Shown: piece by piece, positions 12,086 through 23,640 of the stretch | How the letters are laid out: each line of letters starts with the position of its first letter | Position numbering within the stretch: position 1 is the stretch's first letter | DNA from: Gammaproteobacteria bacterium | Lineage (GTDB): Bacteria > Pseudomonadota > Gammaproteobacteria > UBA4575 | DNA: 64,000 nucleotides | Assembly (NCBI GenBank): GCA_965223115.1 | Contig: OZ244982.1 | Location: 2,557,636-2,621,635 of the forward strand | Reading direction: 5' to 3' | Translations under genes and position numbers: made by a program | The notes under the pieces: generated by a model | Told to the model about the DNA's origin: nothing | The model's input: the letters and a program-made list of their open reading frames with translations, nothing else | Databases searched by the model: none

Positions 12086-12091
12086 GTTAAA

Positions 12092-13126
12092 TCAATTATT
12101 TACTACTAAACGTAGAGTTTGATTTTTAGGCGACTGTGACGAAATTGTGCCATCGATGTTTTGTGCCGCACGTTGCAAATGTTCACCTGCAAAATGTGCA
12201 TAGCGCAATACCATCTCCATACAACTCCATCCACCGAGTTCCATTAGTTCTTGTAAACTGGTTCCATTTTGTACGTGCCATGAAGCCCAAGTATGACGTA
12301 AGTCATGCCAATGAAAATTTTCAATGCCGGCACGCTTACATGCTTTTTTAAATGCTGCGGTGGTGGTGCGTTGAACGGGTTTACCTTTATAGGTAAACAC
12401 ATATTTTTCATGCACCCCTTTGCATTCATGTAATACTTGCAAAGCATCTTGATTCAGTGGCACCGTAATCGCTTTTCTTGATTTGGATTGATCGGGATGG
12501 ATCCACGCAACATTGCGTTTAACATCTACCTGATCCCATTCCAAATAACTTACATTACGTTGACGCAATCCCGTTGCTAATGTGAATCGTGCCATGAACG
12601 CTAAATGCGTCGGTAACTCTCGTATCAATTTTCTTGCTTCCTGTTGCGTAATAAAACGCACACGTTTTTTAGGTTAACGAAAAAGTCTAATACGTGGAAT
12701 GTGATCAATCCACTCCCAATCATCTCTTGCGGTTCGTAGAATGCTACGAATGAGAGCAAGATAACGGTTTGCAGTAGAAGGACTGGCTTCGTGCTTTTTT
12801 ATTTCAGCAATCGTATCAATCAAATCACGATTAATTTCATCGAGATAATATTGACCTAAATATGGATCGAGCCATCGTAGCTTGCCTTTATCTTTTTCAA
12901 GATCTGCTTTGTATTCTTTTTCTCGCAACCAACGAACGATGGCTTCCTGCCAAGTCCGTCTAGGTTTTTCGCCGAGATTGTGGGTTCGCCACAACTCAGC
13001 TTTTAATGTGTCATGGTATTCTTGGGCTTGTTTTTTGTCTTGAGTCCGAGCAGATTGACGTATTCGTTTTCCACTCGGTGACGTGAAACACACCCACCAG
13101 ACTTCGCCGCGTTGATAGAGTGACAT
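12092..13126 (-). pseudogene. int: P4-type tyrosine integrase interrupted by a single in-frame TAA
   Basis: Two ORFs (12674-13126 and 12092-12661) are in the same frame, separated only by TAA at 12674-12676 (…PRIRLFR*PKKRVRFITQQ…). The C-terminal part carries the tyrosine-recombinase catalytic region (HDLRHTWASW…LGGW…Y). It lies immediately 3' of the tRNA. Confidence 0.8.
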
Positions 13127-13347
13127 AGTACAGTCTCCATTGTTGAGTCACTTAGCGACGCTTTCCCAACACCAGAATAATCTTGTTTAAGGTAAGCGAC
13201 AAGTTCGGTTATTAAAAACACCCAACGTCTACCAGGTTTTGTAGCGTTAATTTCCTTATTTTTGGCTTTACGACGCAAGGTGGCCGTAGACATATGTAGA
13301 AACTGAGCGGCTTGCTCTAAATTTAATGTCTGCTCTGTAGGCTTCAT
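13003..13347 (-). CDS. AlpA/Xis-like HTH DNA-binding protein (excisionase/regulator)
   Basis: MKPTEQTLNLEQAAQFLHMSTATLRRKAKNKEINATKPGRRWVF matches the AlpA/MerR-like excisionase HTH. The 3' end overlaps the integrase start in another frame, so the true stop is uncertain. Confidence 0.55.
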   Translation of the reverse strand: MKPTEQTLNLEQAAQFLHMSTATLRRKAKNKEINATKPGRRWVFLITELVAYLKQDYSGVGKASLSDSTMETVLCHSINAAKSGGCVSRHRVENEYVNLLGLKTKNKPKNTMTH

Positions 13348-13442
13348 ATTTACGAATAGTAGGTAATAAACACCCCCTACTATACTCAAAATAAAGGGGT
13401 ATTAAATACCACCCTATTGTTTTAATTAACTCACTGAATACT

Positions 13443-13760
13443 TTACTTCAACTCAGGTGATCTTTTTCCTGGTATTTCTCCTTTTACCGCTTTCCAATAA
13501 TTAGAAACTTTCTTTACTAAATCCCATGCTACTGATTTATCCGCTAATTCACCTTTATCTGGCATATCTTTACGAATATCAATTCCTAGAATTTTTTCGT
13601 ACTCTCGAATGCTTTTTTTATCGTGAATAAGCAATAGTACTTTCCAGCCAACATGTTGCCCTAGGTGCAACATTCCTATGGCGGTTTCTAGTTTTTTAGC
13701 ATTACCTTTATAACGCTTAATTGCTTTGTTAACAGTAGAATGAATTTCTCTCTGATTCAT
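13443..13760 (-). CDS. Hypothetical island protein (105 aa, basic)
   Basis: ORF only; no recognisable motif. Confidence 0.35.
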   Translation of the reverse strand: MNQREIHSTVNKAIKRYKGNAKKLETAIGMLHLGQHVGWKVLLLIHDKKSIREYEKILGIDIRKDMPDKGELADKSVAWDLVKKVSNYWKAVKGEIPGKRSPELK

Positions 13761-23067: not shown

Positions 23068-23069
23068 AT

Positions 23070-23381
23070 ATGGAATTAAATCTAATCGAATTAAAGCAAG
23101 TAATTGATAGAATTTTTCACCATGTAATGTCAACAAGAGGTGTTAATAAAGTAACTATCAATGAGAATTTCTATTGGGATATACCAATTGATAAACTATA
23201 TGACTCATCTAGTATTCCTGAAGAATTAGATGTTGGTAGTCTCGAAGATGATTGGGAATTACTTTCTGTTGTATTAGAAGATGAAACAATACCACTTGCA
23301 TATCAGCTTACTGAATTAGCCCCATTAATTAGAAAGTTAGGTGAATTGCTTGGTAAAGATCTGGCAGAAGATGGTGGTTAG
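23070..23381 (+). CDS. Putative cognate Rhs immunity protein (acidic, ~104 aa)
   Basis: Starts 3 nt after the rhs stop (MELNLIELKQV…); the ORF track shows a possible earlier start at 23037 overlapping rhs. Classic toxin-immunity position. Confidence 0.5.
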   Translation: MELNLIELKQVIDRIFHHVMSTRGVNKVTINENFYWDIPIDKLYDSSSIPEELDVGSLEDDWELLSVVLEDETIPLAYQLTELAPLIRKLGELLGKDLAEDGG

Positions 23382-23427
23382 AGTAATTCTCCTTTACTTA
23401 TTTTGATATAAAATCAAGCATGTGACA

Positions 23428-23640
23428 CATTTGTGTCACACTAAAGTGCATCAAATATCAATATTGTATGTTTTTGACACAGTAAAGAGAGGGAAAGCGT
23501 CGTAAGTAACGGATTTTATTAAATGAGGGTAGTTACAGATAATTCTGAAAATCCTCGTGTCGGTGGTTCGATTGATTGTAGAAAACACTTGCTGTAAGTC
23601 GAGACTATTAATCTGCTAGCTTCTTCATCTGGCCACCATT
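23428..23640 (+). repeat. Junction repeat copy 2 plus attR-like partial tRNA-Phe duplication (right island boundary)
   Basis: 23545-23573 (CTGAAAATCCTCGTGTCGGTGGTTCGATT) is identical to the 29-nt tRNA-Phe segment from the anticodon arm into the T-arm. A degenerate acceptor end …TCTGGCCACCA follows at ~23628-23638. Confidence 0.75.

What the first reader, a model, noticed from the sequence alone, without database searches (positions are those of the whole stretch)
12086..23640. Composite ~11.5 kb genomic island at tRNA-Phe with attR-like 29-bp tRNA duplication
Just 3' of tRNA-Phe lie a P4-type integrase and an AlpA/Xis gene. 23545-23573 reproduces the tRNA-Phe anticodon-arm/T-arm segment exactly, and a degenerate acceptor end follows. 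That defines an insertion with the int pseudogene, the NYN module, an Rhs-immunity pair and no housekeeping genes. An internal ~125-bp repeat (17279-17413 vs 23428-23556), also ending in a CTGAAAATCCTC tRNA mimic, suggests two successive insertions or a swappable cassette.
Basis: seen in the sequence. Interest (0 to 1): 0.6.

Follow-up and report, generated by a model that had tools for sequence, protein, structure and literature searches.

The report
Eroded tandem island at tRNA-Phe
Two small mobile elements of one widespread family inserted one after the other into the phenylalanine tRNA gene and have since decayed; one carries a candidate phage-defence gene and the other a bacterial toxin with its antidote, which is a well-known way for bacteria to collect foreign genes.

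Summary
tRNA-Phe (12010-12085) is followed by an integrase gene killed by one in-frame stop. An exact 29-nt copy of tRNA positions 32-60 lies at 23545-23573. A ~138-nt internal repeat (17267-17404 vs 23421-23556, 84% identical) ends in CTGAAAATCCTC.

Comparison with relatives explains it. The 344-aa integrase belongs to a large, tightly conserved family. In every context fetched with ≥63% identity that included the tRNA, it sits 6-7 nt from tRNA-Phe. Intact members are 4.8-6.9 kb islands flanked by perfect 45-46-nt repeats of the tRNA 3' part. Upstream of the distal repeat they share the sequence motifs found in both window repeats.

So the internal repeat is two copies of the family's attR-side arm, and the 11.5 kb is a tandem array of two units:
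- a 5.35-kb unit: dead integrase, excisionase, orf105 and an NYN/HEC-09 module;
- a 6.15-kb unit with no integrase: an Rhs toxin and its immunity gene.

A scrap of a third element lies at the right edge.

"P4-type integrase" is not: it is an HP1/Aaphi23-like phage integrase. No sister genome exists for an empty-site test, and GC content does not mark the island. This is an ordinary tRNA island, a new member of a known kind.

The parts
12010..12085 (+). tRNA-Phe(GAA), the attL site. The core shared with the distal copies starts at 12041 in the anticodon loop and runs to the CCA end.
   Evidence: ARAGORN; Rfam tRNA 68 bits. Canonical relatives repeat tRNA positions 31/32-76.
12092..13126 (-). 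Integrase pseudogene: 344 codons and a family-typical length, with one TAA at 12674-12676 where relatives have Glu. It retains the residues that are invariant among its relatives. Its stop codon is 6 nt from the tRNA end.
   Evidence: Pfam Phage_integrase 2.1e-33. Homologues are 64-83% identical.
12135..12152 (+). Putative arm-type integrase-binding motif on the integrase side (TGTGACGAAATTGTGCCA). It lies inside the integrase 3' coding region and relatives conserve it at the same place.
   Evidence: alignment A3. The binding function is inferred.
13003..13347 (-). Excisionase of about 114 aa (HTH_17). It overlaps the integrase start by 124 nt, as in L082.
   Evidence: Pfam HTH_17 2.5e-10; TIGR01764 at its cut-off; phrog_2907 excisionase 2.4e-15 over the full length; L082 ORF 9780-10124.
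13443..13760 (-). orf105, a protein of unknown function conserved within the element.
   Evidence: 54% identical to L082 8791-9114. No family hit.
14265..17174 (+). Cargo of unit 1: a 261-aa membrane protein, a 262-aa NYN-domain protein (15342-16130), and 186-aa and 142-aa membrane proteins.
   Evidence: Pfam NYN 2.2e-11; PADLOC HEC-09 2e-35; phrog_7929 and phrog_19745.
17267..17421 (+). Internal att site. It holds the family's attR-side arm (17267-17392), 12 intact core nt CTGAAAATCCTC (17393-17404), and then a degenerate 9/17 match to the tRNA.
17671..23067 (+). Rhs polymorphic toxin of 1798 aa. It has a signal-like N-terminus, DUF6531, YD repeats, three Golvesin_C domains and an RHS core. 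Its 126-aa C-terminal toxin domain (22687-23064) matches no annotated family.
   Evidence: The C-terminal domain has 663 relatives; in the listed hits the match lies at or close to the protein's C-terminal end.
23070..23381 (+). Cognate immunity gene of 103 aa, starting 3 nt after the Rhs stop.
   Evidence: A homologue of the toxin domain in L178 is followed by a 103-aa ORF that is 31% identical to this one, E 2e-14.
23421..23573 (+). Distal attR. It holds the family's attR-side arm (23421-23544) and a 29-nt exact core, tRNA positions 32-60 (23545-23573).
23574..23629 (.). A 56-nt orphan segment that replaces the tRNA's CCGCCCC.
   Evidence: No match in the window or in any fetched locus.
23630..23657 (+). 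An attL-type scrap: the tRNA 3' end TGGCCACCA plus about 19 nt resembling the family's integrase 3' end (TTAAATGAGTTAGTTAC against TTAAAATCAGTTAGTTAC in L083). It is a likely relic of a third element.
   Evidence: Alignment A3.

Best explanation
The 11.5 kb is a decayed tandem array of integrative elements from one family whose tyrosine integrase recombines in the anticodon loop of tRNA-Phe.

How an intact member looks. It carries int, xis, a few kb of cargo and a distal arm. It integrates so that its own copy of the tRNA 3' part completes the gene, and the displaced 45-46 nt end up at the far junction.

What happened here. Two such elements came to lie head to tail by site-specific integration of one into an att site of the other (accretion).
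- Unit 1 (12041-17392) keeps int, xis and orf105, plus an NYN/HEC-09-like module.
- Unit 2 (17393-23573) has lost its own int and xis, and most of the internal core, by deletion. It now consists of little more than an Rhs toxin gene, its immunity gene and its distal arm and core. That makes it a remnant of the cis-mobilizable-element type.
- A GAA-to-TAA change then killed the remaining integrase, and the outermost core was broken after 29 nt. The array is now probably fixed in place.
- A scrap resembling the tRNA end plus an integrase end at 23630-23657 suggests a third element that was almost entirely deleted.

Shown: the sequence features, the family's site specificity, its canonical repeats and conserved arm motifs, and the pairing of toxin with immunity gene.

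Inferred: the order of events, that the conserved motifs are integrase arm-binding sites, and the present immobility.
For: The integrase family and its target site:
- The family is large and tightly conserved; the best 120 hits are 63-83% identical.
- Every fetched context with at least 63% identity that includes the tRNA has the integrase 6-7 nt from tRNA-Phe. All but one of these lie downstream of mutY-yggX.
- Relatives at 48% identity sit at tRNA-His instead.

Canonical islands:
- L082 is 4.8 kb, L083-85 are 5.0 kb, L093 is 6.9 kb and L095 is 6.1 kb. All have perfect 45-46-nt tRNA-derived direct repeats.
- The window units measure 5352 and 6152 nt.

The arms:
- L082 and L083 align with both window copies and share the motifs.
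- L093 and L095 carry recognisable versions of the same motifs, read directly from the sequences printed.
- The two window arms are 84% identical to each other. The nearby 101-nt tandem repeat is 99% identical. The arms therefore come from two related elements, not from a recent local duplication.

Mobility signal:
- int-xis is 75-81% identical in nucleotides to L081 and L082, whereas the flanking housekeeping genes are mostly 67-71% identical.

Other points:
- The integrase differs from its relatives by a single nonsense codon.
- 50 of 80 gammaproteobacterial mutY loci carry tRNA-Phe downstream with neither this integrase nor a second core.
- The concept of decay to a cis-mobilizable element followed by accretion is established (PMC5704250).
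Against: - No empty site or alternative occupant could be examined in a close relative. The genome has no sister in the collections, and its nearest relatives L081 and L082 are themselves occupied.
- GC content does not separate the island from its flanks: unit 1 is 36.6%, unit 2 is 39.9% and the window is 37.6%.
- The internal core is intact for only 12 nt. The 9/17 continuation is barely above chance, so the claim that unit 2 once had its own integrase is inferred, not seen.
- The 56-nt filler and the right-edge scrap remain unexplained in detail.
- The true chromosomal right flank cannot be verified, because the right flank shows no synteny with any fetched locus.
Confidence: 0.8

Rival explanations
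1. The array arrived ready-made. The composite, with unit 2 already lacking its integrase, formed in a donor, excised as one circle through its outer att sites, and integrated here in a single event. Only the point mutation and the erosion of the outer core happened in this genome.
For: Transfer of whole CIME-ICE tandems has been observed in other systems (PMC5704250). The outer sites keep more of the core than the internal one: a full core at attL and 29 nt at 23545, against 12 nt at 17393.
Against: Nothing distinguishes this from in-situ accretion. No related composite was found in the scans run for it: the arm-pattern scans returned 0 hits, and the integrase scan of metagenome contigs returned nothing more than 68% identical.
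Confidence: 0.2
2. There is a single element. Its distal arm was duplicated locally, and the Rhs-immunity pair was placed between the copies by homologous or illegitimate recombination rather than by a second site-specific integration.
For: No integrase or excisionase remnant is visible at the left end of unit 2. Local tandem duplication does occur nearby (101-nt repeat).
Against: The arms are only 84% identical, while the local duplication is 99% identical. Each arm ends in its own tRNA-core piece. Each unit has the size of a full family member.
Confidence: 0.08
3. This is not a mobile element. The tRNA-like pieces belong to an unrelated dispersed repeat or arose by chance, and the genes are ordinary chromosome.
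For: GC content is unremarkable. CTGAAAATCCT also occurs in the repeats upstream of the tRNA.
Against: The 29-nt exact match has zero chance expectation. The arm motifs recur next to the tRNA core in unrelated hosts carrying the same integrase. The integrase and excisionase are present.
Confidence: 0.01

Closest known systems
Tandem accretion of integrative elements with a decayed, integrase-less cis-mobilizable element (CIME), as described for ICESt1/ICESt3 of Streptococcus thermophilus and for IME tandems (PMC5704250)
   Same: Two att-bounded units lie in direct orientation at the 3' end of one target gene. One unit lacks recombination genes, and the arms are related but not identical.
   Different: No conjugation or mobilisation genes were seen, so these are neither ICEs nor IMEs. 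The internal att site is itself truncated to 12 nt, and the remaining integrase is a pseudogene, so cis-mobilisation is doubtful.
Phage-type tyrosine integrases that cross over in a tRNA anticodon loop (phage HP1 at tRNA-Leu; Aaphi23 and P2-like Burkholderia phage integrases)
   Same: The protein has about 340 aa and a Phage_integrase catalytic domain. The closest solved structure is HP1 integrase. It is 46% identical to the Aaphi23 and Burkholderia phage integrases. The repeat starts in the anticodon loop and runs to the CCA end.
   Different: The elements are 5-7 kb with no virion genes among the domains on record, so they are not prophages. That HP1 targets tRNA-Leu comes from my own knowledge and was not tested here.
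P4/CP4-57-type integrase islands at pheV/pheU of Enterobacteriaceae
   Same: The same tRNA species serves as a hotspot, and the integrase lies next to the tRNA 3' end.
   Different: The integrase family is different: there is no P4-type N-terminal domain, and the score is 27.6 bits against a cut-off of 434. The islands are far smaller.
Rhs polymorphic toxin and immunity modules
   Same: YD-repeat shell, RHS core, a variable C-terminal toxin and an immediately downstream small immunity gene. The gene pair is conserved elsewhere.
   Different: The C-terminal domain has no Pfam family. No PAAR or VgrG domain was found. Three Golvesin_C domains are inserted before the core.

Membership tests
tRNA-targeting integrative genomic island (tyrosine integrase) | Integrase gene adjacent to the 3' end of a tRNA gene | tested here: met
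   The integrase stop codon is 6 nt from the tRNA-Phe end.
tRNA-targeting integrative genomic island (tyrosine integrase) | Direct repeat of the tRNA 3' part at the distal boundary | tested here: met
   A 29-nt exact copy lies at 23545-23573, with 9 more nt at 23630-23638. This is eroded compared with the 45-46 nt of intact relatives.
tRNA-targeting integrative genomic island (tyrosine integrase) | Presence/absence polymorphism (an empty site in relatives) | tested here: inconclusive
   No sister genome exists. The nearest relatives L081 and L082 are occupied by the same family. 50 distant mutY loci with tRNA-Phe lack the integrase and a second core.
tRNA-targeting integrative genomic island (tyrosine integrase) | Excision as a circle with restoration of attB | not testable with these tools
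   This needs PCR or read-level data.
344-aa tRNA-Phe-specific integrase element family (unnamed; L082, L083, L093, L095) | Full-length similarity to the family's integrases, keeping the residues invariant among them | tested here: met
   66-83% identity over 344 aa. All columns invariant among relatives are retained except for the single stop.
344-aa tRNA-Phe-specific integrase element family (unnamed; L082, L083, L093, L095) | Conserved attR-side arm motifs (TGTGCC-N4-TTGTGTCA and AAGTAAC-N-GATTT) upstream of the core | tested here: met
   Both window copies align with L082 and L083. L093 and L095 carry the same motifs.
344-aa tRNA-Phe-specific integrase element family (unnamed; L082, L083, L093, L095) | Perfect 45-46-nt core repeat | tested here: not met
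   Only 29 nt (outer site) and 12 nt (internal site) are intact. The element is a decayed member.
P4-type integrase | P4/CP4-57-type architecture of about 400 aa with the P4-type N-terminal arm-binding domain | tested here: not met
   Pfam finds only Phage_integrase and a weak Phage_int_M hit. The NCBIfam PRK09692 model scores 27.6 bits against a cut-off of 434.
AlpA-type excisionase | Match to the Phage_AlpA family | tested here: not met
   The hits are HTH_17, TIGR01764 'excise' and phrog_2907 excisionase. No AlpA hit was returned. Functionally it is still an excisionase-type gene.
CIME / tandem accretion | An att-flanked unit lacking recombination genes, in tandem with a unit that has them | tested here: met
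   Unit 2 (17393-23573) has arm-plus-core sites on both sides and no integrase or excisionase.
CIME / tandem accretion | Functional att sites that allow cis-mobilisation | tested here: inconclusive
   The internal core is cut to 12 nt, the outer core to 29 nt, and the integrase is a pseudogene. Activity is not testable in silico.
Rhs toxin-immunity pair | YD repeats, RHS-associated core, a variable C-terminal domain and a cognate downstream immunity gene | tested here: met
   RHS_repeat 4.5e-88 and Rhs_assc_core 4e-22. The C-terminal family has 663 members. The toxin and 103-aa ORF pairing is conserved in L178.
HEC-09 candidate defence gene (PADLOC) | Match to the HEC-09 model, and demonstrated antiphage activity | tested here: inconclusive
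   The model match is 2e-35. However, HEC-09 gave no protection against any phage tested by its describers (bioRxiv 10.1101/2024.01.29.577857).

The most novel reading that the evidence does not exclude
The integrase-less Rhs-immunity unit, bounded on both sides by the family's arm-plus-core sites, may not be mere debris. It could be a cassette that integrases of this very widespread tRNA-Phe family still excise, re-insert or co-mobilise in trans. tRNA-Phe would then act as an exchange platform where toxin and defence cassettes are stacked and swapped among Gammaproteobacteria.
Probability: 0.12. Interest if true: 0.5.

Novelty: new member of a known kind. Interest (0 to 1): 0.3.

Why it matters
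The locus itself is a textbook outcome: a tRNA island built by accretion and then frozen by decay.

The comparison does bring a modest gain. It outlines an apparently unnamed but very common family of 5-7 kb elements specific to tRNA-Phe, with exact att cores and shared arm motifs. Their cargo includes restriction-modification systems, a KAP NTPase, an AAA ATPase, an NYN/HEC-09-like gene and, here, an Rhs toxin. That gives annotators a precise way to delimit such islands. It also adds a case of an Rhs toxin and immunity pair carried inside a site-specific integrative module.

Tried and rejected
- Exact look-up of YggX found no encoding contig. Cluster look-up showed that all ten window proteins tested are singletons from one 2.67-Mb contig. 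A within-species empty-site comparison is therefore impossible.
It served only as a distant survey of the mutY-tRNA-Phe locus.
- Right-flank proteins show no synteny with any fetched locus, so the original chromosomal junction cannot be confirmed.
- GC content does not mark the island.
- Exact-pattern scans for the arm (CGYAAGTAACGGATTTTATT) found nothing in metagenome or viral contigs. The integrase scan of metagenome contigs gave no relative above 68% identity. No intact version of unit 2 was found.
- The 56-nt filler and the region after the internal core have no matches.
- The Rhs C-terminal domain and the immunity protein have no Pfam, PADLOC, PHROG, NCBIfam or PDB match. The word-based homologue search also found nothing.
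- Rfam finds only the tRNA.
- A consensus fold of the repeats upstream of the tRNA gave no covariation support.
- The promoter and terminator scan was at background level.
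Full report
**1. Observation**

ARAGORN finds one tRNA in the window, tRNA-Phe(GAA) at 12010-12085 on the + strand. Rfam confirms it at 68 bits.

The repeat finder shows that 23545-23573 is identical to tRNA positions 32-60, CTGAAAATCCTCGTGTCGGTGGTTCGATT. A third copy at 17393-17421 matches at 21 of 29 positions. The 12-mer CTGAAAATCCTC occurs exactly three times, against 0.11 matches expected with one mismatch allowed. A 33-nt stretch of the tRNA 3' half has zero chance expectation.

After 23573 the tRNA sequence breaks. Fifty-six unrelated nucleotides replace CCGCCCC, and then TGGCCACCA follows at 23630-23638.

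The internal repeat runs 17267-17404 against 23421-23556 and is 117/140 = 84% identical.

**2. Genes**

- On the minus strand, 12092-13126 is one 345-codon frame for a Phage_integrase-family protein. A single TAA at 12674-12676 interrupts it. All six aligned relatives have Glu at that position, and every residue that is invariant among them is kept.
- A 114-aa HTH_17 excisionase at 13003-13347 overlaps the integrase start by 124 nt. It matches TIGR01764 and phrog_2907 over its full length. The overlap is the same in L082.
- orf105 (13443-13760) is 54% identical to an L082 gene.
- Four plus-strand genes follow at 14265-17174. One is an NYN-domain protein that matches the PADLOC model HEC-09 at 2e-35. 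The describers of HEC-09 found no protection against any phage they tested (bioRxiv 10.1101/2024.01.29.577857).
- 17671-23067 encodes a 1798-aa Rhs protein. It has DUF6531, YD repeats, three Golvesin_C domains and an RHS core.
- Its last 126 aa match no Pfam or PDB family. An exhaustive search finds 663 relatives; in the listed hits the match lies at or close to the protein's C-terminal end.
- One such relative, P0132 in L178 (52% identical), is followed by a 103-aa ORF. That ORF is 31% identical (E 2e-14) to the window ORF at 23070-23381. The toxin and immunity pairing is therefore supported by conserved gene linkage.

**3. The integrase family and its site**

The integrase has thousands of homologues, and the best 120 are 63-83% identical. 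I fetched contexts for seven of them and a few more from a metagenome scan. In every context with at least 63% identity that includes the tRNA, the integrase ends 6-7 nt from tRNA-Phe. All but one of these lie downstream of mutY-yggX. Relatives at 48% identity sit next to tRNA-His instead.

It is not a P4-type integrase:
- It has no P4-type N-terminal domain, and it scores 27.6 bits against the CP4-57/P4-like model, whose cut-off is 434.
- The closest solved structure is HP1 integrase.
- The closest phage integrases, at 46% identity, are those of Aaphi23 and P2-like Burkholderia phages.

**4. What intact members look like**

| Locus | Island size | Direct repeat |
|---|---|---|
| L082 | 4.8 kb | perfect, 45-46 nt |
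| L083-85 | 5.0 kb | perfect, 45-46 nt |
| L093 | 6.9 kb | perfect, 45-46 nt |
| L095 | 6.1 kb | perfect, 45-46 nt |

In each case the repeat runs from the anticodon loop to the CCA end.

The roughly 130 nt upstream of the distal repeat carry motifs that recur across hosts of very different GC content. These are TGTGCC-N4-TTGTGTCA about 110-125 nt upstream, and AAGTAAC-N-GATTT about 30-45 nt upstream. Both window repeats align to this arm (L093 and L095). A similar bipartite TGTG motif lies on the integrase side, at 12135-12152 in the window and at the same place in relatives. Their role as arm-type binding sites is my inference.

Cargo differs from island to island:
- a rolling-circle-type Rep in L082;
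- a KAP NTPase in L083;
- an AAA_15/21 ATPase in L093;
- a BglII-type restriction enzyme with an MT-A70 methylase in L095;
- restriction-modification genes in L097.

**5. Interpretation**

The window's 'internal repeat' is two copies of the family's attR-side arm, each abutting a piece of tRNA core. The spacings between successive cores are 5352 and 6152 nt, each the size of one family member. The arms are 84% identical, whereas the local 101-nt duplication next door is 99% identical. The arms therefore stem from two related elements, not from a recent duplication.

This is the known pattern of site-specific accretion plus decay to an integrase-less, att-bounded unit (PMC5704250). Either order of arrival gives the same map. 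In both, unit 2's int-xis and most of the internal core were later deleted. No trace of them remains, so that step is inferred.

At the right edge, TGGCCACCA plus TTAAATGAGTTAGTTAC resembles the family's junction of tRNA end and integrase 3' end (L083 has TTAAAATCAGTTAGTTAC). This suggests a third element that was almost wholly deleted. The 56-nt filler is unexplained.

With the integrase dead, the internal core cut to 12 nt and the outer core cut to 29 nt, the array is probably immobile unless a helper integrase exists elsewhere in the genome.

**6.

- Empty sites. The genome is a lone 2.67-Mb contig whose tested proteins are all singletons at 90% identity. Its nearest relatives L081 and L082 share about 70% nucleotide identity in the flanks, and the same integrase family occupies both. 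In a distant survey, 50 of 80 gammaproteobacterial mutY loci carry tRNA-Phe downstream without this integrase or a second core. That fits insertion but is not a strict empty-site test.
- Composition. GC does not discriminate.
- A positive signal of mobility. int-xis is 75-81% identical to L081 and L082, while the flanking housekeeping genes are mostly 67-71% identical.

**7. Verdict**

This is a real but ordinary decayed tandem tRNA island, a new member of a known kind. The integrase label 'P4-type' does not, and the excisionase returned no AlpA-family hit.

Noticed in passing
window 11716-12009 (units at about 11716-11803, 11804-11904, 11905-12005); L081 1406-1650 (minus strand): Three tandem units lie just upstream of tRNA-Phe, and the last two are 101 nt long and 99% identical. 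Each begins GGCCAGG like the tRNA 5' end and contains GTGG-CTGAAAATCCT, which is the anticodon stem-loop, within a hairpin. The units align to the tRNA 5' half. L081 has two similar units whose loop base follows its own tRNA (ATTGAAAATC). No Rfam match and no covariation support were found, and the units occur only in the window and L081. They could be decayed tRNA copies, leader elements or pseudo-attB sites.
   Followed up: partly
window about 21418-22350 (Rhs residues about 1250-1560): Three Golvesin_C domains (Pfam 3.2e-71) are inserted between the YD-repeat region and the RHS core. The Rhs protein also has a signal-peptide-like N-terminus and no PAAR or VgrG domain.
   Followed up: no
window 22687-23381; L178 37-989: The Rhs C-terminal 126 aa belong to a toxin-domain family with no annotation and 663 relatives. 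Its 103-aa partner is conserved next to a homologue in an unrelated metagenome contig.
   Followed up: partly
window 13003-13126; L082 10001-10124: The excisionase ORF overlaps the integrase start by 124 nt in a different frame, and this is conserved between the window and L082. One database relative (P0091, 415 aa) is annotated with both HTH_17 and Phage_integrase domains.
   Followed up: partly
L103-L105, about 10001-11130: Integrases 48% identical to the window's sit next to tRNA-His instead of tRNA-Phe. This looks like a specificity switch within the wider clade.
   Followed up: no
L082 9184-9669: The closest intact relative carries a 161-aa REP_ORF2-G2P-type replication protein between orf107 and xis. 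Unit 1 of the window lacks it.
   Followed up: no
L081 1215-1536: The nearest relative's integrase has lost about 80 nt at its 3' end, and the called gene reads through the tRNA. This is a second independently decaying copy at the same site.
   Followed up: partly
window 24675-25025 and 26267-26815: Two odd low-complexity secreted proteins lie just right of the island. One is rich in His, Tyr and Arg (116 aa). The other is a Glu/Arg-rich repeat protein (182 aa). The region is low in GC (31-36%), and it is unclear whether it is native chromosome.
   Followed up: no
L094 and L096 (whole contigs): Short-read contigs of 6.9 and 6.1 kb start in the tRNA core and end just past the integrase, matching the island lengths in L093 and L095. 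The likeliest cause is an assembly break at the 45-nt repeats, so this is not evidence of circles.
   Followed up: no
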